From a virus (Duplodnaviria; Heunggongvirae; Uroviricota; Caudoviricetes), in IMG/VR virus record IMGVR_UViG_3300037483_001818: a stretch of 64,000 nt of DNA, one strand, 5' to 3'. A program made the position numbers and the translations under genes. Below, piece after piece: positions 1,932 through 21,111 of this stretch. Below the pieces are notes generated by a model that saw nothing but the letters and a program-made list of their open reading frames with translations, was not told the origin of the DNA and did not search any database. The first letter of the stretch is position 1; each line of letters starts with the position of its first letter.

Positions 1932-2423
1932 TCAGCCTAGCTTCCGAAGCATCGCAGCGGCTTCGTTCGCCCCTTCCTTCGTGCTGTAGCCGGTTCCATC
2001 TGCGTTGTAGATGCTTCCGCGGACGACGCGTCCGTTGCTGTTCACGGGCTGCCATCGAGAGCCGACCTTACGCACGGTGATCTTTGTGCGCGGTGTCTTC
2101 TTCGTGGCATGAGCACTCGGCGACGAGGGTTTTTTGCTGGACCGTGGTGAGCGTCGGATCAGGTAGCCCGTCAGATTCTCGTCGAACTCGGCTTCGTCCG
2201 CGATGCCGCGCTGCTCGTCGTCGGCGAATGCGAGAGCGCTGGAAGCAACCTCGTCGTACGCTTTGGGCGAGTCGTATGCGACTCCAGGTCCGAAGCCCGC
2301 GGGGGCGGGATTCACGATGCCGCGCCACAGGAGCTTGCCGCCGCTGCTCACTGCCGTGCGGTAGTGGTTCTTGTCGTCGTACACGACGCTGATCTGGAGG
2401 TTACCCGAGTATCGCTTCGCCAT
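1932..2423 (-). CDS. Two-domain basic protein with AHATKK linker (candidate virion core/cargo)
   Basis: Two compact domains separated by the S/K-rich linker SSKKPSSPSAHATKK. Confidence 0.65.
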   Translation of the reverse strand: MAKRYSGNLQISVVYDDKNHYRTAVSSGGKLLWRGIVNPAPAGFGPGVAYDSPKAYDEVASSALAFADDEQRGIADEAEFDENLTGYLIRRSPRSSKKPSSPSAHATKKTPRTKITVRKVGSRWQPVNSNGRVVRGSIYNADGTGYSTKEGANEAAAMLRKLG

Positions 2424-2500
2424 AGTACGTTCCTATCGGTTGGTGTCGCCGTCGCACGTGATCGCGCAGTCAGGATCTTCACGGCAGATCGCGTGCGCGT

Positions 2501-2785
2501 TCACGCCGCGTTCTCCACGCAGCCTTCGTGCGCGATCTGAAACACGCGCTTCCATTCGTAGAGCTTCTCGTCGAAGTCGGGAGGCACTCGACTCGCGAGC
2601 GCGTCTCCCCGAATGCCGCCCTGGAACGCGGCCAGCATGCTTGCTGGCAGCTCCATCTTCTCCTCAGCACCGCAGCGCGTGCACTTCTGGAGCAAGATCG
2701 TGCCGTCGAGCTTGTTGCCGATCCACTTCGCAGCAGGTGAGGCGCCAAGCGTCTCCGCTGCACGGATGGATTGTTCGTGGTTCAT
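2501..2785 (-). CDS. Hypothetical protein with CxxC...HxxC zinc-binding pattern
   Basis: CTRC...HEGC; RBS-like GGAG upstream. Confidence 0.55.
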   Translation of the reverse strand: MNHEQSIRAAETLGASPAAKWIGNKLDGTILLQKCTRCGAEEKMELPASMLAAFQGGIRGDALASRVPPDFDEKLYEWKRVFQIAHEGCVENAA

Positions 2786-2912
2786 CGTCGCACCCACTCC
2801 TCGAAGGAGTCTTGCAGGTGCCACAGCGCGCGCAAGATTCGGCGACGCGGCGGCCAGTCGAGCAGGAGGTAGCGTCGCGGTGACAGGCGGTCACGATGGT
2901 GCTTCGTTCGGC

Positions 2913-3278
2913 TCATCGAGCTTCTGCCTGCACAGCTGGTGGATTGGTGCTCCTCCTGCGCAGCTCCGCGCGGATCTCCTTGATCTCGTGCTCGATACCC
3001 TCCAGCGCGCGGGCCTGTCGATAGCTGAACGACTGCCCGACGCAGGACATGAACGACGCACCGACGCCGACAGCAGCGATCAAGACCGCGACGAGGAGCT
3101 TTCGGCGCAGAGAGCCCTTGCCTGGTAGATCACCGGGCGCGGATCCGGGCGTCGGCATCATTCCGGCCGTGAGCAGCTTGGCAAGGTCTTCGGGGGATAT
3201 CTCCTCGGCGGATAGCGGCACGGCGTGCGGCACACCCGGAGGCGGTTCGTTACCCAAGCTCCACCGCTCGTCGCTCAC
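2913..3278 (-). CDS. Single-pass membrane protein with C-terminal coiled coil
   Basis: LLVAVLIAAVGVGASF hydrophobic helix, then ALEGIEHEIKEIRAEL; GTGA-coupled start. Confidence 0.5.
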   Translation of the reverse strand: MSDERWSLGNEPPPGVPHAVPLSAEEISPEDLAKLLTAGMMPTPGSAPGDLPGKGSLRRKLLVAVLIAAVGVGASFMSCVGQSFSYRQARALEGIEHEIKEIRAELRRRSTNPPAVQAEAR

Positions 3279-3749
3279 GAGCGGCCTTTCGCGACGATCT
3301 GCTCCCAGCGTTGACATAGATCGTCCGAGACGACGATCTTCTTCTCGGAGGTGTGTGGCAGCGAAGAGCTTGCCGAAGAGCTGGAGAGTGGCGGGTGCTT
3401 CGGGATGCGTCGCCCCCGGACGGTCGCGGTGTTCACGAAGCCATCCTACCCGACGGTTCCGACGCCCGGCCAGTAAAGAGAGATCTCCTCGTCGTTTCAA
3501 TCCACGCGATCACGGCATAGTGATCGCGACTGGAGAACGCTAGCACGTGGCAGTAGGACACGACGACGGCAACGACGGCGAGCAGCGAAAACGGCAATGG
3601 AGCAATAGACGGGACCGCGGTGCTTGCGGACTGCCTCGATGATCGATCGCGCGAGGCTCTCACCTGCTTCCTGCCCGATGACGAGCGCGTTCTGGTGCGC
3701 TCGTGAGGGTTTCTTCGAGGCGGGCATTGGGGAGCGGTGGTGCTCAGGA

Positions 3750-4520
3750 TCATGAAGCTGTGCGGGATTCCATCGTAGCGGGTCGAACTGCTGGACGATC
3801 GACTCCTTCGTTCGCCCATGCAACTGCTTCGTTGAGGCGGCGCCAGATTTCATCTGGGCTGAGGTCCTCGCAGCCGACGAAGCGCGCGAGAAGCGCTTCT
3901 TGCGCGGCGTGATATGCCTGGGCATACGCCAGTGCGTAGACGTCGTCACCTACGAGTAATGAAATGCCTGGCGGCAGTGGCAATGAAATGCCCACTGGGG
4001 GCGGCAATGGAAAGTCGGCCAGCTCGCGGTAGCGGTTGAGCCAACGTAGGCCCTCAGCGAAGGTACGCGTCACTCGTCGAGATTCCTGTTCGACCGGTTC
4101 GGTCATTGCGGGACCGCGACCAATGACAGCTCCGTAGAAATGGGCACCTTCTGGGCGTTGTCCTGTGTAGGTCACGACGAACTCGAGCGATCTGTTGCAG
4201 GGCGCGATGTCGAGAGCCAGCCCGTATATTGGAACGTCCTTCGTCGAAAACTGTTCGATGACCTGTGAGACGCCGTCGACCACGATCTCGTGCACGAACC
4301 AATCCTCGCCGTAAGGTCCCTGAAGAAAGAGACGCTCGGCATGAAATGGGGTCGGGGTTTGGGTTTCGCTGGGTGTTGCGTAGCAGCGCACTCGTTCGTT
4401 GTGCTTGATCGAAGGTGTTGGCCTGGTGTTGTCCTCTTTGTCCGAGCACACTCGCATCATCTCTCGACTGCCTGGGATGGACGGCTTGTCGGAGGCTTCG
4501 ATCGTATTCTCTTCAGGCAT
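3750..4520 (-). CDS. Beta-sandwich (jelly-roll-like) domain protein, paralog A
   Basis: FHAERLFL...WFVHEIVVDGVSQ...LDIAPCNRSLEFVVTY aligns by eye with 43476-44198 and 58084-58566; TAGTCT-N6-ATG. Confidence 0.55.
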   Translation of the reverse strand: MPEENTIEASDKPSIPGSREMMRVCSDKEDNTRPTPSIKHNERVRCYATPSETQTPTPFHAERLFLQGPYGEDWFVHEIVVDGVSQVIEQFSTKDVPIYGLALDIAPCNRSLEFVVTYTGQRPEGAHFYGAVIGRGPAMTEPVEQESRRVTRTFAEGLRWLNRYRELADFPLPPPVGISLPLPPGISLLVGDDVYALAYAQAYHAAQEALLARFVGCEDLSPDEIWRRLNEAVAWANEGVDRPAVRPATMESRTAS

Positions 4521-4569
4521 GGGAGCAGACTACCGCGTGATGCATTCTCCTGGTCCGCGGTTCGCGGAA

Positions 4570-5049
4570 TCACCGCGTACGCTTGTCGCCGCGAAGCGCG
4601 TCGGCGATCTCGCGGTCGAGTTGCTTCTTTGACTTCGATGCCTTCGTCGGTACAGCAACGATTCGCTCGGCGATCTTGATGTCGGCTTGCGAGGTTGGCA
4701 GCCGGTCATCCACCACGTCATGAAGACCCCAGAACTTCTTGCGGGGTCGCGAGAGTGCGTCGCCGGGCTCGCGCACGAGGCGCCCGATCCGGATCGATTC
4801 GTCGACCACGATGTGGTCAGCACCGCCGTACGAACCAGTTTCCTGCGCGGTATACGCGTGCGCGATGTGCCAGCGAAAAGGTAGCTGGGCGAGCAGCAAG
4901 CGCAGGTATTGCTCTCGTTTGACGAGCAGCTCGTCGTAGAGCCGTTCGTTCTCCGCGCGCGCGGCGGGTTCGTAGAGACCGCGTGCGAGCTTCCACGCGC
5001 GGCGGCGATCCTTTTCCAGCTGTTCGTAGTCGCCGACCGCCACGTTCAA
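4570..5049 (-). CDS. Hypothetical protein with C-terminal KSKKQLDREIADAL tag
   Basis: Tag shared with ORFs at 6964, 8183 and 10733; TTGA-coupled start. Confidence 0.65.
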   Translation of the reverse strand: MNVAVGDYEQLEKDRRRAWKLARGLYEPAARAENERLYDELLVKREQYLRLLLAQLPFRWHIAHAYTAQETGSYGGADHIVVDESIRIGRLVREPGDALSRPRKKFWGLHDVVDDRLPTSQADIKIAERIVAVPTKASKSKKQLDREIADALRGDKRTR

Positions 5050-5489
5050 TCCAGCTCGAGGAGCGCGAAGCGTTTCACGGAGTCGTCGGAATCATGGTCA
5101 CGGTGTTGAGGCCCCGACGCCCCGGAGCTGGCCAACCGAGCTGCCTCACCGCGCAGCCGTGCGATTTCGTCGGTCAAGCGCTGGTTGTCCCTTCGAAGTC
5201 GCGCGCATTCCTCGACCAGTTCAAGCGCGGTCTGTGGCTCGGTCGCCGTCGATGCGGGAAGGGCGAGCCTGGTCGGTCGCGCGGTCGTTTGCCGCGGGCC
5301 GGTGATCGTGACCTGGCTGTGCACGGCGACCACGTTGGTCACGGCTTCTCGCGCCCGTGGTTGACCGCGTTGTCCCTCCAGTACAAATCCCGTTGCGGGG
5401 GCATCGGAGGGTGGCCGGCGTCGCGCGGTGATACCGCAGACGGCCAACTGTCCGACGAGATCGGGGTTGAAGAAGACGTGAACTGTCAC
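5046..5489 (-). CDS. Coiled-coil protein ending RFALLELD
   Basis: Heptad segment CARLRRDNQRLTDEIARLR; TACGAT-N6-GTG upstream. Confidence 0.6.
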   Translation of the reverse strand: MTVHVFFNPDLVGQLAVCGITARRRPPSDAPATGFVLEGQRGQPRAREAVTNVVAVHSQVTITGPRQTTARPTRLALPASTATEPQTALELVEECARLRRDNQRLTDEIARLRGEAARLASSGASGPQHRDHDSDDSVKRFALLELD

Positions 5490-5542
5490 CGATCGATCGT
5501 AGCGCGGGACCGGCTACGAATGAACAACGATCCCGTGGCGAT

Positions 5543-5716
5543 CTACCCGTGCAGCTTCGCTACCGCAGACGGTGCGAGCGCGATGAGTAGCGCGAGGATC
5601 GAGGAGAACAGGAGCATCTCGCCGATGCGTACGCGCTTGTTGTTCGCGCCTTCCGCGGGCAAGAGGAACATGAGGAGGCCGGCGATCAGGGCGACGAAGA
5701 GGAGATAGGATGCCAT
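5543..5716 (-). CDS. Small two-TM membrane protein (holin-like topology)
   Basis: Two hydrophobic helices joined by a basic loop; TTGAAC-N18-TACGAT-N6-ATG. Confidence 0.55.
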   Translation of the reverse strand: MASYLLFVALIAGLLMFLLPAEGANNKRVRIGEMLLFSSILALLIALAPSAVAKLHG

Positions 5717-5768
5717 GGCTAGATCGTAGGCCGCAGATCGATCGCGGTTCAAGGACGACCTTGGATGT

Positions 5769-6155
5769 ATGCTGCGGCACGTGCCCGTTCGCTACGTCGC
5801 GGTGATCATCGAAGATCTGCAAGGACGTGTGCTCCTTCTCCTACGTGGGCCTACGGCCCCGTTGATGCCGAACCGATGGAACTTGCCCGGCGGCAAGATC
5901 GAGTCCGGCGAGTCGACGGTGGAAGCTGCGATGCGCGAGACGCTTGAGGAGACGGCCCTTCGCGTATTCGCGCTCTCGTCTGTCGCGCGAATCGGCGATC
6001 TCGTGGTGTTCCACGCGGACGATTGGGCGGGTCGCGTGCGCCTCGTCGATCGCGAGCACACACGTGCGACGTGGGTACCTAAGGAGATCGCGTGGACGTG
6101 GGATCTTATCTCGCCGCAGGGTGAGGTATTGCGGCGTTTCGTTGGTAGTAGCTAG
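5769..6155 (+). CDS. Nudix hydrolase
   Basis: Nudix box G-KIESG-E-STVEAAM-RETLEETAL. Confidence 0.92.
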   Translation: MLRHVPVRYVAVIIEDLQGRVLLLLRGPTAPLMPNRWNLPGGKIESGESTVEAAMRETLEETALRVFALSSVARIGDLVVFHADDWAGRVRLVDREHTRATWVPKEIAWTWDLISPQGEVLRRFVGSS

Positions 6156-6185
6156 GCCGCCGTCGAGCCATCGAGCCGAGGTCGT

Positions 6186-6506
6186 TCAGTATCGCGCGGC
6201 AGCGCGTACGCGCATCAGATCTCCCTCTTCCAGCTTGAGGCCCTTCTTCGTGTAGTACGCGTCCCACGCACGATTTTGCTCGGCCTGGGACATACCTGGT
6301 GTGATGCCAACTTCGCGGGCGCGTGCACGACCCTCGCGTTCCAGATCCTGCATTTCTTTGACAATCGGGCGCGTAAGCAGGTAGGCGGCTCCGCCGATGA
6401 CGGCCGCGCCGATCGCGATCTTCCACCACGGTGTTGCCGTTGTCGGTTGATCTGCACCGACATGGGCATAGTGGCCGTTTGGTCCGTAATTTCCGCGTTC
6501 GTTCAT
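6186..6506 (-). CDS. Single-pass membrane protein
   Basis: WWKIAIGAAVIGGAAYLL TM helix; TATAGT-N6-ATG. Confidence 0.6.
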   Translation of the reverse strand: MNERGNYGPNGHYAHVGADQPTTATPWWKIAIGAAVIGGAAYLLTRPIVKEMQDLEREGRARAREVGITPGMSQAEQNRAWDAYYTKKGLKLEEGDLMRVRAAARY

Positions 6507-6513
6507 GTGATGA

Positions 6514-6714
6514 CTATACGCGTGCGACGCTCGTTGCGTCGAGCCAGCCACTCACGCCGCGCGGGCTCCGTAGGTGAACGCGCCAGTACGGGTTGCCGCG
6601 CGTCCCGAGGTTCTTGATCTCATCGACGATCAAGGTTTCGTCCTTGTAGAACGGAGGCACGCGGTAGTCGGATACGACGACGTCACCTGGCGACAGCGGT
6701 GCTCCACGAGGCAT
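6514..6714 (-). CDS. Small SH3/KOW-like beta protein
   Basis: LSPGDVVV...LIVDEI...YWRVHL...GWLDATSV pattern; GGAGG RBS. Confidence 0.55.
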   Translation of the reverse strand: MPRGAPLSPGDVVVSDYRVPPFYKDETLIVDEIKNLGTRGNPYWRVHLRSPRGVSGWLDATSVARV

Positions 6715-6963
6715 GGCTTAGCCTCCCATAGACAGTTTCTTGAGCCCAGTGCTTGCGATCGGCTACGCTCGCTTCGTGAAGCGAAACCTGATCGCCGTTC
6801 CGATGGGGGCATGCCCATACAACCCACGCATCATTCCGACCAGCACGGTCGTCATGCTGAGCATCGACACGGGACCGCTGGGCGTCTGTCAGGCACTGCC
6901 GTGCTTCGCCGGCCGGCGCCGCCGCCGTCGGTGCCGGTAGCACGGATCTGATAGGCTCAGGTC

Positions 6964-7377
6964 GTGGCCAAGTCCTCTGCCCAACTCGACCGCGAGATCG
7001 CCCAGTCGCTCGGATTGCCGGATGTGGTCACGAAGAAGTGGCGGTCCAAGGTCGCGGCGTACAAACGTGCGATCGCCAAGCTGGAAGCGGGCTACAGCGA
7101 TGAGCTTTTCTACGCGGCAGCTCGCGCGCGTGACGCGCTCGACAAGGTGATCTACGAAGCGACGTCGCACATACCGTACGATCCGGCCAAGCCTGCGCAC
7201 CTGTCCGATGCGATCCAGGCGCTCGAGCGCGAGCGAAACGCGCTCGTGTCGAGCACATGGGAGCCGGCGAAGGAACGCGGTCGCGAGGCGAATCGGCGCT
7301 CTGGTGAAGAGGAGATCAAGCGTCTCCGCGAAGCCGAGCGCGAAGCTCGCCGCCCCTACGACTGGATGCGCCGATGA
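6964..7377 (+). CDS. Helical protein with N-terminal KSSAQLDREIAQSL tag
   Basis: Tag motif; TAGGCT-N6-GTG leaderless-type promoter. Confidence 0.7.
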   Translation: MAKSSAQLDREIAQSLGLPDVVTKKWRSKVAAYKRAIAKLEAGYSDELFYAAARARDALDKVIYEATSHIPYDPAKPAHLSDAIQALERERNALVSSTWEPAKERGREANRRSGEEEIKRLREAEREARRPYDWMRR

Positions 7378-7562
7378 AGTTTCGATCTGCGCTCATCCGT
7401 ATTCAGCGTGAGGCTCTCGCGCGCCTCGCGGCGAAGTTGCCGACGCGGCTCTTGGATGATGCACGTATCGCGATGACTGACGAGCTGGCTCGGCGGGGTT
7501 ACCACCTGATTCCTCGTTCACGACCGCAGGCGCGCAAGAAAAGCATGTTGGGGAGGCACTAG

Positions 7563-8183
7563 ATGGCCCGCAAGTACGGCAAAAAGGCTTCCGAGAAGAT
7601 CGGCAAAACGATGCACGAGTTCAAGCGCGGCAAGCTCAAGAGCGGTGGCTCGGGCAAGAAGGTCACGAGTCGCAAGCAGGCGATCGCGATCGGCATCTCG
7701 CAGGCAGCACGCGCGGGCTACAAGGTTCCGCCGCCGCCGCGTGGGCACGCGACGATGAGTGATGATGAGCGTGTTCGCGCGTATCTCAGCAACATGCGAC
7801 CGGGCTCTGAGATCGATGGGTGGGGTCTGGCACGCGCTCTCAAGATCGAGCCGATCGCAGCAAGTTATGCGCTCGCACGTGCGGAGAAGGCAGGGCTCGC
7901 TGTCACGGGTGATGGTCAGTGGTTCGGCCCGGCAAGTTCGGAGCGAGGGCGCGCACACGCGAAGATGCGGAGCTCTCCCGTTGTGTTGACGGGCAGCGTG
8001 ACCATGCCGACCGGCAAGAGCGCCGAGATCCACATCCATCATGGCAAAGGCGGCTATGACGGCGTGCTCGTGCTCGCTAACGGCGAGGAGTTGCCGATGT
8101 CCGTCGGCAAACCTTCCACCGCGGCTGAGGCGCTGCGCAACGCGAAGAAGTTCCTCGCGCAGGTCTATGGAAGGAGCAACTGA
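7563..8183 (+). CDS. Three-module basic protein: DUF6496-like N-terminus plus two domains joined by GHATM and AHAKM linkers
   Basis: N-terminus KYGKKASEKIGKTMHEFKRGKLKSGGSGKKVTSRKQAIAIG resembles DUF6496 small basic proteins (family recalled, not searched). Confidence 0.7.
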   Translation: MARKYGKKASEKIGKTMHEFKRGKLKSGGSGKKVTSRKQAIAIGISQAARAGYKVPPPPRGHATMSDDERVRAYLSNMRPGSEIDGWGLARALKIEPIAASYALARAEKAGLAVTGDGQWFGPASSERGRAHAKMRSSPVVLTGSVTMPTGKSAEIHIHHGKGGYDGVLVLANGEELPMSVGKPSTAAEALRNAKKFLAQVYGRSN

Positions 8184-8743
8184 TGGCGAAAAAGACGTCG
8201 CCCGCGCAGCTCGATCGCGAGATCGCCGAAGTCCTCGCGAAGAAGCCTTCGGACCAGTGGACCGTGCATGATCGCCTCGCGGTTATGACGCCTGCCCAGA
8301 AGAAGCGCGAGCTGAAGGACTTGCAGCAGGCCAGGGAGCGGACCTTTCGGGCTCTGGGATATGCCGGGAACACGCCCGATCAGGTGCGCAAGTATCACGA
8401 CGCGATCGCAGAGATCGACGCGAAGATGAAGCTGTTCGTTGGCAGCTCGCACGCGACGCGGCGGAGCCATTCCACCAAGGCGGCGAGCAACGGTCTCTTC
8501 GCTGTAGAGATCGATCGTTCCGAGTTCGACAGCGGTCGCGAGCTGCCGGACGGCGCGCGCTGGCGTCCTGATCGCGCGAAGCTCGCGGAAGACGAGCTGG
8601 CACGCGGTCGGTCCTATCGCCGTCCCAAGGATGCTCGCTACGCCGTGATCGAGTGGACAGGATTTCGTGGCGCGGTAGGCCGCCTGCTCGACTGGTTGGA
8701 AGGGGCGGCGGGTGTTACGCGCTACGCAGAGATCTTCGAGTAA
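8183..8743 (+). CDS. Two-domain protein with N-terminal SPAQLDREIAEVL tag and SHATRRSHSTK linker
   Basis: Carries both recurrent motifs; TGATG coupling. Confidence 0.7.
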   Translation: MAKKTSPAQLDREIAEVLAKKPSDQWTVHDRLAVMTPAQKKRELKDLQQARERTFRALGYAGNTPDQVRKYHDAIAEIDAKMKLFVGSSHATRRSHSTKAASNGLFAVEIDRSEFDSGRELPDGARWRPDRAKLAEDELARGRSYRRPKDARYAVIEWTGFRGAVGRLLDWLEGAAGVTRYAEIFE

Positions 8744-8757
8744 CGAGGGACATTTCA

Positions 8758-9426
8758 ATGAAGCAGCCACTCACGCATCTCGGCACGACGCCGTCGGGCA
8801 AGAAGGTCTTCCTCGAGAAGCTGCCGCACGAGTATCCGCGCTTCTCGAAGAGCGATCACTTGTACGCGGCAGTTCTCCATGGAGCGAACCGCACTCGTGG
8901 CGGAGCGGTCGCAGATCTGCATCGCTTGGCGGCCGGCGATCGTGATCGCGGCTCCAGATCTGGTCGCGCTGCACACGCGACGAAGAAGGACTTCGACTGG
9001 TCGTCGTTCACGGATGGGGCGGCGTTCGGGTTCTGGGCGAGCCCGTACGTGAGTGAAGTCGAGAACCTCGCCGAGGAATCACGGGAAGCGTATCGCGCGC
9101 TGTCTCCGGGCTCTGGCGGCAAGTGGGCTTCCGTGATGCCCAAGACGCCGCCCTCGGCGGAGGCAGCGGCGAAGAAGTTCACCAAGGCCGTGAAGGCTAA
9201 GCTCACCGATGCTCAGTTGAGCGAGCTCTCAGAGAAGTTTTCCGCACACGACGCGGGCTACTACGGTGCGATGCAGGCGCAAGGTGAGGGCGTTGGCTGG
9301 TTCGATGAAGGAGTTCGTCTCGATCCTCCGCGGGGGTTCGAATACGATCCGAAGATCCAAAACGCGGTCGCGAGCGCAATTGCCAAGGGTGCTCGCGAGG
9401 CTGGCGTCAAGCTGCCGCGGCGATAA
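8758..9426 (+). CDS. Two-domain protein with AHATKK linker
   Basis: GAGGGA RBS; linker RGSRSGRAAHATKK. Confidence 0.65.
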   Translation: MKQPLTHLGTTPSGKKVFLEKLPHEYPRFSKSDHLYAAVLHGANRTRGGAVADLHRLAAGDRDRGSRSGRAAHATKKDFDWSSFTDGAAFGFWASPYVSEVENLAEESREAYRALSPGSGGKWASVMPKTPPSAEAAAKKFTKAVKAKLTDAQLSELSEKFSAHDAGYYGAMQAQGEGVGWFDEGVRLDPPRGFEYDPKIQNAVASAIAKGAREAGVKLPRR

Positions 9427-9490
9427 GGCGCCTTCGTCTACAGCGCGTGCAGCGGGATCTGAGCTACTACGATCATAAGGAGAGCCGGCC

Positions 9491-10270
9491 ATGGCAGCAA
9501 AGAACCCCATCAACGACGTTCCGTTCGGGCAGGAACGTTCGCTCAAGGATCACCTTCAGCGCGCTGAATGGGAGCGCGATCAAGCGGCGCAACTGCGCGC
9601 GAAGAAGCAGCCTGTCGGGTACGAGCACATCGCTCAGGGGCATGAAGATGCGGCGCGCGCGTACGAGAAGCGGGTGAAGGATCTGGAGCGTGAAACGCGG
9701 GAAGGGCACGTCGCAGAGCGTCGGAAGCGCGATCCGGGCGCTTGGAGCTCGCGTGAGCAGCTCATCAACGTTGCACGCGTCGCGGCTGCTGCGGTGTTCG
9801 CGCCGCGCAAGGTCTCTCCGTCGGAGGTCGCGATCAAGAAGGCTCGCGAAGCAGCGTTCAAGGCGATCAAGCGGCACGATCCACTCTCGGGCACGTCGGA
9901 GCATCCCGTTGCGGCTTACGCGCACGGTATCGCCGCGCTCGCCGCTGAGGGGACAGAAGAGGCGCGGCAGCGCTGGGAGACGCAGCGCGCATCTGCGGGC
10001 AAGAGCCGACGCTCCTCGCACAGTACGATCGCTGTACCTGCAACGCGCAACTACGAGTACGTCGTCTACCCGGAGACGTCGCACCGCAACGCTGAACGTG
10101 CGGTGAAGGTTCCCACGCGTCGCGTCGGAGGCGCGGTGCGGCCCTACGATCTTACCGACGCCAAGCGCGTGGCCAAGGAGATGGGATCTCCCGCGTCGAT
10201 CTACAGCGTTAGCAAGGGTCGCTTCGTGGGCTACGTGCACCCGAGCGGTCGTTACGTGACCTTTCGCTGA
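9491..10270 (+). CDS. Multi-module basic protein with SSHSTI linker
   Basis: AAGGAG RBS; linkers REGHVAERRKR and GKSRRSSHSTIA. Confidence 0.65.
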   Translation: MAAKNPINDVPFGQERSLKDHLQRAEWERDQAAQLRAKKQPVGYEHIAQGHEDAARAYEKRVKDLERETREGHVAERRKRDPGAWSSREQLINVARVAAAAVFAPRKVSPSEVAIKKAREAAFKAIKRHDPLSGTSEHPVAAYAHGIAALAAEGTEEARQRWETQRASAGKSRRSSHSTIAVPATRNYEYVVYPETSHRNAERAVKVPTRRVGGAVRPYDLTDAKRVAKEMGSPASIYSVSKGRFVGYVHPSGRYVTFR

Positions 10271-10388: not shown

Positions 10389-10733
10389 CTACGCATCCTC
10401 CAGCTCTTCAACTTCCCAGCGTTTGACGAGCGTGAGAGAGAAGACGTTGTTGTTCCGTCGGACCGCGCGCAAGACCTTATGGTGACCTGGCTCCGCCAGG
10501 CCGAAGCGCCAGTAGGCCGTTTCTTCGTCGATGGGATCGAAGCCGTACTTGTTCACGCAGCCCTTCCTCAACGTAGGATGTGCTCTCCAAAAGCTGATCA
10601 GTTCGCTGCGGGAATCGGCAGGGATTCGCAGCCCCTCGACGGGTTGAAGCTTGGACATTCGTCTCGCGTTCCGACTGCTCTTGAAGAGCGTCTCTGCGAT
10701 CTCCGCGTCGAGTTGGGCCGGGGTCTTAGCCAT
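10389..10733 (-). CDS. Protein with N-terminal KTPAQLDAEIAETL tag
   Basis: Tag motif; TAGAAT-N6-ATG. Confidence 0.7.
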   Translation of the reverse strand: MAKTPAQLDAEIAETLFKSSRNARRMSKLQPVEGLRIPADSRSELISFWRAHPTLRKGCVNKYGFDPIDEETAYWRFGLAEPGHHKVLRAVRRNNNVFSLTLVKRWEVEELEDA

Positions 10734-10866: not shown

Positions 10867-11442
10867 ATGATGAAGCGAACGATGGCGTGGATGATTGTGG
10901 TGACGATGTTTGTTGCGTGCTCGAATGACCAGGCGCTCTCGTCCGATGACCAGGATCAAGGCCAGGATCAGGGCCTCCCCGAGGGCACTGCGGCGCTCAA
11001 GCGTGATGCCGCAGTTGACGCGCCCTTGTCGATGGATGCGTACGCGGGTGCGAATTCCATCGCATGCCCGAAGGCATCGAACGCGGCGTGGACATGCCAC
11101 CTTCCGCCGGACCACTGCTGCGTCGGCGGCTACGGCACCCCGGTGGTCGGTCAGTGCACGTCCGCGCTCTGCACGGCTCACCAGCTGGACTGCGATGGAC
11201 CGGAGGATTGCACGTCCGGTCAGAAGTGCTGGTCGTATCGGTATCATGATCCTGCACCCCTCGAGACGGCGCACTGGCACCTGATGTGCTCGGCGACAGC
11301 ACCGGGTGGCGAGCTGGACTGGGTGGTCTGCCATTTGAACGCCGACTGCGCGTCGGTTCCTGGCACGACCTGCAAACCCGTGCAATCGCCGTCGGTCGGC
11401 GCGTACGATCTGCCGATCCCGTACAACGTTTGTCACGCGTGA
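10867..11442 (+). CDS. Cys-rich lipoprotein
   Basis: Signal peptide with lipobox FVAC; many paired Cys including CDGPEDC; AGAAAGG RBS. Confidence 0.7.
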   Translation: MMKRTMAWMIVVTMFVACSNDQALSSDDQDQGQDQGLPEGTAALKRDAAVDAPLSMDAYAGANSIACPKASNAAWTCHLPPDHCCVGGYGTPVVGQCTSALCTAHQLDCDGPEDCTSGQKCWSYRYHDPAPLETAHWHLMCSATAPGGELDWVVCHLNADCASVPGTTCKPVQSPSVGAYDLPIPYNVCHA

Positions 11443-12134
11443 TCTAGGATCGCTCGCGCGAGCGTGAGCTTGTTCGGCGACAGATAGCTGCCGATGCTCT
11501 TGAGCCGGACCTTGTCGCGATCGGTGCGCCCCCAGTTTTCGAGATCGACGAAGGCGATCTTGCCGTCGTACGTGAACTGGACGTTCTTGCTGTTGGAGTC
11601 GAGGCCCGGAAGCGCCACCAGCACGCGGAGCAGTTCGCGCAGGACGTTGTCTGCGATGTCCTGGTAGCGGCGTTCGGACTCTTCGCGTCCAACGATGTCG
11701 ATGCGCTCGACGATGAGCACACGCGCTTTCTTGCCAAAGCTCTTGGGCAGCTCGTGGAGGTACTTTTGTGGCACGGAGACGTGCTGTAGGCCCTCGCGGC
11801 GGATGATCTCCGCGACACGCGCAGCGCCCTCGATGCGTGCGGCGTAGTTGGCGTTCTGCTCTTTTTTCGAGACGTCGTCCGCGTACTTTTTGAACAGGTA
11901 GCCAGGCGCTGATGGGTGGGCTGCGACCATGCACTCGGTGTCTTTCGCCGGATCGAGGATGTCAAAGCCCGCTCGCCGCCACGCACGTCGCTTGTCGAAC
12001 ATGTCGGGATCAACAAATAGGGCGGCGAGGTCGAGCGATTTCGGGTCGAAGATCACGCGCTCGACATTACGTGAGTGCTTGCGGACTAGCGATCGGGATC
12101 GATGCGTGTCCAGCCGATCCAACCTGATGGACAC
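11433..12134 (-). CDS. Minimal protein-kinase-like protein
   Basis: YLFKKY (beta3 Lys), LDSNSKNV (DxxxxN catalytic loop), IAFVDLE (DFG equivalent). Confidence 0.65.
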   Translation of the reverse strand: MSIRLDRLDTHRSRSLVRKHSRNVERVIFDPKSLDLAALFVDPDMFDKRRAWRRAGFDILDPAKDTECMVAAHPSAPGYLFKKYADDVSKKEQNANYAARIEGAARVAEIIRREGLQHVSVPQKYLHELPKSFGKKARVLIVERIDIVGREESERRYQDIADNVLRELLRVLVALPGLDSNSKNVQFTYDGKIAFVDLENWGRTDRDKVRLKSIGSYLSPNKLTLARAILDHA

Positions 12135-20451: not shown

Positions 20452-21111
20452 TCACGTGGCAACCTCCTGGTAGTTTTGCTTTCCCGGTATCGCGCCGCGG
20501 ATCCCGCCTCGCGGATCGTCGACATCTCCGGCGTAGCGGGGGATCACATGCACGTGCATGTGGGGGACGGTTTGTCCCGCGGCGATGCCGGCGTTGAAGC
20601 CGACGTTGAAGCCGTCGGGTGCTCGTAGTGTCACGATCGCGTTCTGCACCTGGTCGACCAAGCGCCAGATTGCAGTTTTCTCGTCGGCGGTGCAGTCGAA
20701 GTAGGTTGCAACGTGGCGGCGCGTGACGATGAGCGCGTGTCCGAGCGACACGGGATGTTCGTCTTCGAAAGCGAACGCGAGCGACGACTCCGCAAGATGC
20801 ACACGCGCGCTGTCGCAGAATGGGCATGGAGGGCAGGACATTTCTACCTGAACGGGTTTTTCCGCGTGGAACCCGGGCCGCGCCGCAGCAACGCGGACGA
20901 CAACGTCGAAGGTGCCGCGATCTGTCCTGACCCGGACCTCCAGGTAGGTGAACGTATTGTGGCGGAAGTCTACTTCAGCGTACTTCTGAGCGGCCACCTT
21001 TGCCACGCTCCGCGGGCTATCCGTCTCGTAGGTCACCACGATGCGCCGCGCGTGATCGCGCGTCTCTCTGCGCGATGGCACCCAGCACTCTGTGCACTCG
21101 CTCCACGGCAT
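20452..21111 (-). CDS. HIT-family nucleotide hydrolase with extra N-terminal domain
   Basis: CPFC, PVSLGHALIV, GFNVGFNAGIAAGQTVPHMHVHVIPR (HxHxH triad). Confidence 0.92.
   Translation of the reverse strand: MPWSECTECWVPSRRETRDHARRIVVTYETDSPRSVAKVAAQKYAEVDFRHNTFTYLEVRVRTDRGTFDVVVRVAAARPGFHAEKPVQVEMSCPPCPFCDSARVHLAESSLAFAFEDEHPVSLGHALIVTRRHVATYFDCTADEKTAIWRLVDQVQNAIVTLRAPDGFNVGFNAGIAAGQTVPHMHVHVIPRYAGDVDDPRGGIRGAIPGKQNYQEVAT

What the first reader, a model, noticed from the sequence alone, without database searches (positions are those of the whole stretch)
2097..10027. Recurrent basic (S/A/G)-H-(A/S)-(T/K) linker between small domains: candidate polyprotein cleavage code
Seen: seven copies in five proteins. 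AHATKK (2097-2114), GHATM (7743-7757), AHAKM (7953-7967), SHATRR-SHSTK (8447-8479, two copies), AHATKK (8971-8988) and SHSTI (10016-10030). All sit in Ser/Arg/Lys-rich segments at apparent domain boundaries. ORF 8183 carries both this linker and the QLDREIA tag, which ties the two motifs into one system. Known: several large DNA viruses mature core polyproteins at short motifs (poxvirus AG|X, ASFV GG|X, adenovirus (M/L/I)xGG|X). Inference: a His-containing protease site or docking linker that lets the virus chain small cargo domains. I do not recognise a described precedent.
Basis: partly seen in the sequence, partly recalled or inferred. Interest (0 to 1): 0.8.

Follow-up and report, generated by a model that had tools for sequence, protein, structure and literature searches.

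The report
Conserved His-Ala-Thr joint between phage modules
An uncultivated 330-kb phage and its relatives join small, otherwise free-standing proteins into chains through a conserved, disordered His-Ala/Ser-Thr joint, which usually sits just before a shared helical tag. The joint is most likely a protease cutting site, but no cutting has been shown.

Summary
All seven copies lie at the stated coordinates, in five basic proteins, and each sits at a module boundary. Enrichment in the window alone is modest (9 observed against 4.2 expected, p about 0.03). The comparative evidence is strong. The joint (small)-H-(A/S)-(T/K/R) is kept at the same junctions in hundreds of metagenomic homologues while the surrounding linker changes. 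Its codons vary synonymously. The four copies covered by the two AlphaFold models fall in the only low-confidence segments of those models.

In internal copies of the QLDREIA tag the His lies 8-9 residues before the Gln. That is close to where the start Met lies in N-terminal tags (5-10 residues, mostly 6 or 8). A distant relative encodes the same modules as separate tagged genes and has no such joint. The motif is therefore specific to junctions.

A profile of the cassette (consensus RHHATKK-SPAQLDREIAEAL) finds 602 protein clusters. I read the motif as a processing site in modular, probably capsid-targeted, cargo proteins (confidence 0.5). No protease, head gene or cleavage product could be reached.

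This scan had already noted the tag in this genome. It had also noted comparable cargo chains with other linkers in other huge phages.

The parts
1932..2423 (-). 163-aa basic protein (pI 9.8) made of two modules joined by the motif
   Evidence: ORF. pI. The N-module recurs with other partners in L001 433-1110 and P0234.
2097..2114 (-). Motif copy AHATKK (His at residue 105)
   Evidence: The surrounding 15-residue window has no hydrophobic residue.
7563..8183 (+). 206-aa three-module protein: DUF6496, then a winged-helix-like module, then a beta/alpha module
   Evidence: Pfam PF20106, E 2.2e-19. The AlphaFold model has three confident domains and pTM 0.35. Only weak winged-helix fold matches. 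441 homologues.
7743..7757 (+). Motif copy GHATM (His 62), the DUF6496/winged-helix junction
   Evidence: Lies in the pLDDT<50 segment 59-63. H-A is kept in 128 of 130 homologues while the linker varies.
7953..7967 (+). Motif copy AHAKM (His 132), the winged-helix/beta-module junction
   Evidence: Lies in the pLDDT<50 segment 128-135. Conserved as HAK/HSK-M in relatives.
8183..8743 (+). 186-aa protein: N-terminal tag, helical module, double motif, then the conserved C-terminal 'LFAVEID' module
   Evidence: 87 homologues with varied architectures. AlphaFold model. The start overlaps the previous stop (TGATG), with GGAAGGAG upstream.
8183..8242 (+). N-terminal QLDREIA tag (helix, residues 7-20)
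8447..8479 (+). Tandem motif SHATRR-SHSTK (His 90 and His 96)
   Evidence: Residues 88-100 are the only pLDDT<50 segment of the model. Conserved as (H-A-x-R-R)-x-H-S-T-K in close homologues.
8758..9426 (+). 222-aa two-module protein
   Evidence: The N-module is found with other partners in L001 11538-11999 and P0209. The C-module stands alone with an N-terminal tag in L012 5701-6234.
8971..8988 (+). Motif copy AHATKK (His 73)
   Evidence: The same junction reads AAHATKKAFDW in L009.
9491..10270 (+). 259-aa protein: helical N-part plus the conserved C-terminal 'YEYVVYPE' module
   Evidence: 60 homologues, and the C-module is joined to at least six different N-parts.
10016..10030 (+). Motif copy SHSTI (His 177)
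   Evidence: H-S/A-T-I/V precedes this module in nearly all homologues.
6964..7377 (+). 137-aa protein with an N-terminal tag. Its L004 counterpart carries an extra N-module joined by HHATKK
10389..10733 (-). 114-aa protein with an N-terminal tag variant (QLDAEIA)
4570..5043 (-). 157-aa protein with a C-terminal tag and no motif. Its relatives are recorded as DUF8336

Best explanation
The motif (small)-His-(Ala/Ser)-(Thr/Lys/Arg), followed by a basic or hydrophobic residue, is a junction signal. It occurs where this huge phage lineage has fused small, independently occurring modules into chains of two to five modules. Its commonest form is the front end of a portable cassette with consensus R-H-H-A-T-K-K-S-P-A-Q-L-D-R-E-I-A-E-A-L, that is, the motif followed directly by the helical address tag.

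I propose that a phage-encoded protease cuts at or next to the His-Ala/Ser pair after the chain has been delivered to its destination. The destination is most likely the assembling capsid, as with T4 internal proteins. Cutting would free an untagged upstream module. It would leave the downstream module with an N-terminus much like that of a free-standing tagged protein after removal of its start Met (Ala-Thr-Lys-Lys against Ala-Lys-Lys). Where a second motif follows the tag by 5-25 residues, the tag itself would be trimmed off, as the T4 capsid-targeting sequence is.

Shown here: the motif is real, is selected at protein level, lies in disordered linkers, is specific to junctions, and is linked to the tag. 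Inferred: cleavage, the scissile bond, the protease and the capsid destination.
For: 1. Protein-level selection. Codons vary synonymously, including a switch between TCN and AGY serine codons. At the DUF6496/winged-helix junction H-A is kept in 128 of 130 homologues, while linker length and sequence change.

2. Accessibility. The four copies in the two AlphaFold models are in the only pLDDT<50 segments, between confident domains.

3. Module boundaries. 66% of left and 55% of right homology breakpoints lie within 12 residues of a motif, against 27-28% for random positions.

4. Junction specificity. N-terminal tags start with Met 5-10 residues before the Gln, mostly 6 or 8. In internal tags 90 of 115 have H-[A/S] upstream, 78 of them exactly 8-9 residues before the Gln. 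Free-standing DUF6496 begins MARKYG, and internal copies begin HATKY or HATKKYG. In relative L012 the same modules are separate, translationally coupled genes; the six tagged genes show no motif, and the locus has only one H-[A/S]-T, in an unrelated protein.

5. Layout like the T4 targeting sequence. Several small proteins read N-terminal tag, 5-10 basic residues, HAT, then module. 80 of 163 tags have a second motif within 30 residues downstream.

6. Spread. A 36-position cassette profile finds 602 clusters at E<=0.001. The flanks of the best 150 hits fall into 122 unrelated families.

7. Indirect link to heads. In unrelated IMG/VR phages DUF6496 genes lie beside major head, portal, 'DNA pilot' or virion structural genes in four of five loci checked. 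One DUF6496 is fused to InPase, a domain of phage polyvalent proteins (PMC5512222).

8. Tagged zincin peptidases (YgjP-like, SprT-like) that carry the motif occur in relatives.
Against: No cleavage product, protease or head gene of this phage was seen. The Pfam and PHROG summaries of 137 window proteins list no protease family, though the PHROG table shows only 25 of 38 matched families.

The third position is Thr in only about 70-76% of copies, so the sequence requirement is just two to three residues. No characterised phage head protease is known to use His: the T4 type cuts after L/I-x-E and the phiKZ/SPN3US type after a Glu-ending motif.

Some junctions lack the motif. 25 of 115 internal tags have none, mostly the '...ARKPPR...KKTPAQLDAEI' junction. 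The junction before the 'YEYVVYPE' module lacks it in P0233, P0239 and P0241. Cutting therefore cannot be obligatory.

Module families upstream and downstream of the cassette hardly overlap (1 of 122 clusters). That would also fit stable two-domain proteins with a central helix.

The pooled statistics count homologous copies, and the profile search was built with the His-Ala pair in it.
Confidence: 0.5

Rival explanations
1. The joint is not cut. It is a short linear motif in a permanent flexible linker. It could be a docking site for a partner such as a packaging factor, chaperone or DNA, or a modification site such as phosphorylation of the Thr or the His. The chains would then work as intact multi-domain proteins.
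For: The motif lies in disordered, very basic linkers. Tandem copies such as HATRRSHSTK are common and would give avidity. Upstream and downstream module families are almost disjoint, as expected for fixed two-domain designs. A substitution of Thr by Glu, which could mimic phosphorylation, occurs at one junction (HAEM).
Against: Free-standing versions of the same modules and tags lack the motif entirely (L012; N-terminal tags). So neither the modules nor the tag need it. A docking or modification site needed by the cargo should persist on single-module proteins. The Thr is replaced by Ala, Met, Gly, Val, Arg or Lys in a quarter of copies.
Confidence: 0.25
2. The motif has no biochemical role of its own. 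It travels with the tag cassette, which serves as a microhomology for in-frame recombination, and is seen at junctions because that is where cassettes were pasted.
For: Close relatives (about 85% identity in shared modules) differ in module order and fusion state. Two tag copies in the window share a 21-base identical run. CAC-GCG-ACG is the commonest coding form of the motif.
Against: The motif is kept at junctions that have no tag (HATM before the winged helix, HSTI before the C-terminal module) across homologues down to about 50% identity, while neighbouring linker residues drift. Codons differ between copies. A neutral scar would decay.
Confidence: 0.12
3. The joint cuts itself. This would be cis-autoproteolysis by an N-to-O acyl shift at His-x-Thr/Ser, as at the GPS site of adhesion receptors (H-L|T) or in Nup98 (H-F|S).
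For: Formal likeness of H-A-T and H-S-T to H-(hydrophobic)-(S/T). This likeness comes from my own knowledge of those systems and was not tested here.
Against: The known cases need the motif held in a strained beta structure. Here it lies in segments with pLDDT below 50. The nucleophile position is not Thr or Ser in about a quarter of copies.
Confidence: 0.05
4. Chance or composition: His simply falls next to abundant Ala, Ser, Thr and Lys in low-complexity linkers.
For: Enrichment in the window alone is only about two-fold once local composition is kept (p about 0.03).
Against: The reversed motif is barely enriched (z 2). HAT is among the most over-represented tripeptides and the most abundant of them in the pooled loci (60 observed against 10 expected). 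Position is conserved across hundreds of homologues.
Confidence: 0.02

Closest known systems
Phage T4 internal proteins IPI-III and Alt, with the N-terminal capsid-targeting sequence removed by the gp21 prohead protease
   Same: A short portable peptide is shared by unrelated small basic proteins. A short site next to it would remove the tag or separate parts. Several proteins here have the layout tag, spacer, motif, module.
   Different: The T4 site is (L/I)-x-Glu and has no His. The T4 tag is strictly N-terminal and T4 cargo is not chained. Here the tag is often internal and the motif lies mainly in front of it. Packaging and cutting are proven in T4 and not here.
Head-protease substrates of giant phages phiKZ, 201phi2-1 and SPN3US (gp175 and gp245; PMC10052503, PMC5694885)
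   Same: Huge phages in which many head and ejection proteins are cut at a short consensus, some at several sites.
   Different: Those motifs end in Glu, and cuts mostly remove N-terminal propeptides. Module chains with a repeated joint plus address cassette are not described there. No sequence relationship was found (PHROG scan of the cluster proteins: no hits).
Polyvalent proteins of phages and conjugative elements (Iyer et al. 2017, PMC5512222)
   Same: Many independently occurring domains are strung in one polypeptide and combine freely. They are proposed to be packaged and then processed into units by a zincin metallopeptidase domain. Here DUF6496 is fused to the polyvalent-protein domain InPase in one IMG/VR phage, and tagged zincins occur in relatives.
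   Different: Polyvalent proteins are long, enzyme-rich and have no defined linker code. The chains here have 2-5 tiny modules of no known family, with one repeated joint and a shared helix.
Polyprotein maturation in large eukaryotic DNA viruses (poxvirus AG|X, ASFV GG|X, adenovirus (M/L/I)xGG|X)
   Same: A short motif repeated at boundaries of basic core proteins.
   Different: Different motif, different (cysteine) proteases and unrelated viruses. Analogy only.
Small-x-small cleavage rule of signal peptidase I and other Ser-Lys-dyad proteases, and the (V/L/I)-x-Ala|Ser rule of herpesvirus assemblin (from my own knowledge)
   Same: If the cut follows the Ala/Ser, the pattern (S/A/G/T)-His-(A/S)|x has small residues at -3 and -1.
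   Different: In the wider family the -3 position is often His or Arg. There is no hydrophobic region, and no such protease has been identified here.

Membership tests
T4-type capsid-targeting and prohead-protease cargo system | One short portable peptide shared by otherwise unrelated small proteins | tested here: met
   The QLDREIA tag is on four window proteins and on dozens of unrelated modules in relatives. The cassette profile finds 602 clusters.
T4-type capsid-targeting and prohead-protease cargo system | Cleavage motif (L/I)-x-Glu, or S/A/G-x-Glu in phiKZ-like phages | tested here: not met
   The motif is (small or His)-His-(Ala/Ser)-(Thr/Lys/Arg). Glu is not enriched at any flanking position.
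T4-type capsid-targeting and prohead-protease cargo system | A prohead protease encoded by the same genome | not testable with these tools
   No whole genome is held. The family summaries for 137 window proteins list no protease. Walking 20 kb to the right and 10 kb in a relative found none.
T4-type capsid-targeting and prohead-protease cargo system | Proteins present in virions in cleaved form | not testable with these tools
   Uncultivated phage. No proteomic data are available.
Polyvalent proteins (Iyer et al. 2017) | Two to fifteen independently occurring domains in one polypeptide, with variable combinations | tested here: met
   The same modules are separate genes in L012 and are fused in different orders in the window, L001, L002, L004, L009 and L011.
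Polyvalent proteins (Iyer et al. 2017) | Signature domains (MuF, zincin MPTase, ART, helicases, InPase and others) in the same protein | tested here: not met
   Pfam finds only DUF6496 in the window cluster. Of 140 cassette proteins, 5 carry DUF6496, 1 is SprT-like and the rest have no family. InPase and YgjP-like domains occur only in other phages.
DUF6496 (PF20106), N-terminal module of ORF 7563-8183 | Match to the Pfam model above its gathering score | tested here: met
   70 bits against a cut-off of 24, E 2.2e-19, residues 4-57.
Cis-autoproteolytic His-x-Ser/Thr sites (GPS/GAIN, Nup98) | Invariant Ser/Thr nucleophile after His-x, held in a folded beta structure | tested here: not met
   The third position is Thr in 80 of 118 contexts and is otherwise Arg or Lys. 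At one junction it is Ala, Glu, Ser, Met, Gly or Val. The motif lies in pLDDT<50 linkers.
Large-DNA-virus core polyprotein processing (AG|X, GG|X) | Gly-Gly or Ala-Gly motif and an adenain- or SUMO-type cysteine protease | tested here: not met
   The motif has no Gly-Gly. No such protease family appears among the window proteins.

The most novel reading that the evidence does not exclude
Huge phages of this lineage use a previously unknown protease specificity centred on a His-Ala/Ser pair. It is coupled to a portable 'cut-and-address' cassette (RHHATKK-SPAQLDREIAEAL) present in at least 600 protein clusters. Untagged small effector modules ride into the capsid, or into another compartment, fused in front of tagged ones and are then released. 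The cassette also lets modules be swapped in frame between phages.
Probability: 0.35. Interest if true: 0.75.

Novelty: new variant of a known kind. Interest (0 to 1): 0.6.

Why it matters
If the joint is a cutting site, it defines a new recognition code for a phage maturation or processing protease. It would also give a simple rule for reading hundreds of unannotated huge-phage genes as chains of separate small proteins.

It would explain how these phages deliver and exchange many tiny proteins of unknown family, possibly host-takeover or anti-defence factors. It would also offer a compact tag-plus-site cassette for loading foreign proteins into large capsids.

Even if the joint is not cut, the cassette marks one of the largest families of modular proteins of unknown function in huge phages.

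Tried and rejected
Related DNA. Megablast of the first 12 kb and tblastn of two cluster proteins against GenBank phages gave no match. IMG/VR and GTDB genome scans with the C-terminal module found no relatives. IMG/VR holds only distant DUF6496 proteins.

Whole genomes. None is held for the window or for loci L001-L015. I therefore could not look for the prohead protease, capsid, scaffold or portal.

Walking with exact-protein look-ups. These gave only more small early-type genes and one uninformative 3-kb contig for the tagged SprT-like protein.

Function of the modules. PHROGs gave no hits for the cluster proteins. Foldseek against the PDB gave only weak winged-helix matches. Two ESM Atlas searches gave nothing usable.

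Internal translation starts. I rejected these because the motif holds no start codon. At the HATM and HAKM junctions the Met follows the motif.

A nucleotide-level signal. I rejected this because of synonymous variation.

Complex prediction. I did not run one for a zincin peptidase with a linker peptide, because I do not claim that pair binds.

Literature. Searches for DUF6496 and for the peptide strings found nothing relevant.


Full report
WHAT THE WINDOW IS. The window has 63% G+C and about 140 mostly small genes, many with overlapping stop and start codons. Exact copies of its proteins lie on a 328,796-bp metagenomic contig. Earlier notes of this scan describe the same genome as a roughly 330-kb huge phage. 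No whole genome is held for it.

THE OBSERVATION. The proteins are ORFs 1932-2423 (-), 7563-8183, 8183-8743, 8758-9426 and 9491-10270. All five are strongly basic, with pI 9.5-10.3 against a window median of 6.3.

In the window alone the enrichment is modest. The count is 9 against 2.1 expected in plain shuffles. It is 9 against 4.2 when local composition is kept, which gives p of about 0.03 for a motif defined after the fact. The case rests on comparison with relatives.

CONSERVATION AND SELECTION. ORF 8183-8743 has 87 metagenomic homologues, ORF 7563-8183 has 441 and ORF 9491-10270 has 60. Fifteen related loci were fetched.

- In the pooled loci HAT is among the most over-represented tripeptides and the most abundant of them (60 observed, 10 expected). 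The reverse, TAH, is not enriched.
- Local-composition shuffles give z of 12-16 for the motif and z of 2 for its reverse. Homologous copies inflate these values.
- Codons differ between copies: CAC or CAT for His, GCG, GCC or GCT for Ala, and both TCN and AGY for Ser. Selection therefore acts on the peptide.
- At the junction after DUF6496 the His-Ala pair is present in 128 of 130 homologues. The proline-rich linker before it changes in length and sequence. The third residue is Thr in about three quarters and otherwise Ala, Glu, Ser, Met, Gly or Val.
- Over 118 distinct contexts the pattern is Ala, Ser, Gly or His at -1, then His, then Ala (83%) or Ser (17%), then Thr (68%), Arg or Lys. The next residue is Lys, Arg, Met or Ile.

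WHERE THE MOTIF SITS. The AlphaFold model of ORF 7563-8183 (59-sequence alignment) has three confident domains. Its only segments with pLDDT below 50 are residues 59-63 and 128-135, which hold the two motif copies. The pTM of 0.35 fits beads on a string. The model of ORF 8183-8743 (85 sequences) has one such segment, residues 88-100, which holds the tandem motif. The tag forms helix 7-20.

In an all-against-all comparison, 66% of left and 55% of right alignment breakpoints fall within 12 residues of a motif. Random positions give 27-28%. The flanking pieces are independent modules. DUF6496, a winged-helix-like domain (weak fold matches), the 'LFAVEID' module, the 'YEYVVYPE' module and about ten others appear in different orders and fusion states in relatives that are about 85% identical within shared modules.

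THE MOTIF IS JUNCTION-SPECIFIC AND TIED TO THE TAG. This is the key result.

- N-terminal tags begin with Met 5-10 residues before the Gln of QLDREIA, mostly 6 or 8.
- Of 115 internal tags, 90 have His-(Ala/Ser) just upstream. In 78 of these the His lies exactly 8-9 residues before the Gln.
- MAKKTSPAQLD and HATKKSPAQLD align residue for residue, with His in the place of the start Met.
- The same holds for DUF6496: MARKYG when free-standing, HATKY or HATKKYG when internal.
- In the more distant relative L012 the same modules are separate, translationally coupled small genes. Each of six starts with its own tag, and none shows the motif. The locus has only one H-[A/S]-T, in an unrelated protein.

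So neither the modules nor the tag need the His-Ala-Thr. It appears when something is fused upstream.

Half of the tags (80 of 163) also have a second motif within 30 residues downstream. Several small proteins read tag, short basic spacer, HAT, module. That is the layout of the T4 capsid-targeting sequence and its cleavage site.

SPREAD. A 36-position profile of the cassette found 602 cluster representatives at E<=0.001 among 1.84 billion proteins. In the best 150 the consensus is R-H-H-A-T-K-K-S-P-A-Q-L-D-R-E-I-A-E-A-L. The flanking segments fall into 122 unrelated families. Nearly all have no Pfam family: 5 carry DUF6496 and 1 is SprT-like. The profile contained the His-Ala pair, so these hits show spread. 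They are not an independent test of the link between motif and tag.

INTERPRETATION. A residue pair that is conserved, disordered, accessible and present only at fusion points is what a processing site looks like. Cutting at or beside the His would give downstream modules an N-terminus like that of free-standing tagged proteins. It would also release upstream modules that have no tag of their own.

The capsid as destination is inferred from two lines. The first is the T4 and phiKZ/SPN3US precedents (PMC10052503). The second is the genomic context of DUF6496 in unrelated IMG/VR phages:

- L047: downstream of the major head gene and next to a 'DNA pilot'-like gene.
- L061: just after the terminase and portal genes.
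- L055: about 2 kb downstream of the major head gene.
- L063: beside a virion structural gene, at the start of a 2,260-residue protein.
- L084: fused to InPase, a domain specific to phage polyvalent proteins.

These come and from PMC5512222. The fifth locus whose gene neighbours were checked (L053) has a helicase beside the DUF6496 gene.

Candidate enzymes are the unseen head protease or zincin peptidases. A YgjP-like peptidase with an N-terminal tag and two His-Ala-(Arg/Lys) motifs lies 9 kb from the cluster in L008/L015. A SprT-like fragment also carries the cassette.

WHAT SPEAKS AGAINST, AND WHAT IS MISSING.

- No cleavage, protease or head gene of this phage was seen.
- The requirement is only two to three residues.
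- No characterised phage head protease uses His.
- About a fifth of internal tags and some other junctions lack the motif.
- Upstream-type and downstream-type module families barely overlap. This would also suit permanent two-domain proteins.

RIVALS. My estimates are a non-cut docking or modification motif (0.25), a recombination cassette boundary without its own function (0.12), self-cleavage (0.05) and chance (0.02). Self-cleavage is disfavoured by the disorder and the variable third residue.

NOVELTY. The literature searches found no description of the motif, the tag or DUF6496 function. The principle of an address peptide plus a short protease site on head cargo is known from T4 and the phiKZ-like phages. 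Chained independent domains are known as polyvalent proteins. New here are the His-centred joint, its fusion with the tag into one portable cassette, and chains of tiny modules of no known family.

This scan had already noted the tag in this genome (e1-1681689). It had also noted cargo-chain systems with other linkers in other huge phages. Those notes are unchecked and were used only as context.

Noticed in passing
L012 4768-7312: A distant relative (70-kb contig) encodes the same modules as six separate, mostly translationally coupled small genes. Each starts with its own QLDREIA-type tag. None of the six has the His-Ala-Thr joint.
   Followed up: yes
L008 374-1057 (same gene in L015): A 227-aa protein with an N-terminal tag variant, two His-Ala-(Arg/Lys) motifs, a zinc ribbon and a YgjP-like HExxH metallopeptidase domain (PF01863, E 2e-25). 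It is a candidate processing enzyme. No homologue is present in the window.
   Followed up: partly
L047 9950-10372; L061 10001-10117; L055 9998-10543; L063 9977-16759; L084 8256-10118: In unrelated IMG/VR phages DUF6496 lies in head modules, next to major head, portal, terminase, 'DNA pilot' or virion structural genes. It also starts a 2,260-aa protein and is fused to an InPase domain.
   Followed up: partly
window 11433-12134 (-): A 233-aa protein of no known family beside the cluster. By eye its sequence has a kinase-like D-x-x-x-x-N loop and a later D-L-E. Pfam and a PDB sequence search gave nothing.
   Followed up: partly
window 20553-20626 (+): ARAGORN calls a tRNA-Gly(GCC) inside the - strand ORF 20452-21111, whose product has a HIT domain. 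This is either an overlap or a false call.
   Followed up: no
window 8181-8185: The stop of ORF 7563-8183 and the start of ORF 8183-8743 overlap as TGATG. GGAAGGAG lies just upstream, which suggests translational coupling. In relatives (P0011, L004 9230-10261) the equivalent modules are fused into one protein.
   Followed up: partly
L002 10686-10904 and 17314-17970: One module gene ('LDPFTRSYIETMLWE...') is split by about 6.4 kb of inserted DNA. The insert includes an HTH gene and a gene with a faint IS1-type transposase hit. The same gene is intact in L001 10974-11516.
   Followed up: no
P0246 (hit of the cassette profile): A 264-aa protein with seven copies of 'LLQCGPAQLGREI'. It looks like the translation of a DNA repeat array rather than a true cassette protein.
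   Followed up: no
window (members not identified): Two of the 137 scanned window proteins match phrog_15528, which is annotated 'portal protein' (best E 7e-10). They are not among the ten largest proteins tested.
   Followed up: partly
record behind (right of the window, no DNA returned): About 15-17 kb beyond the window's right end the gene table lists an AcrVA2-like protein (398 aa) and a weak RNA-ligase hit.
   Followed up: no
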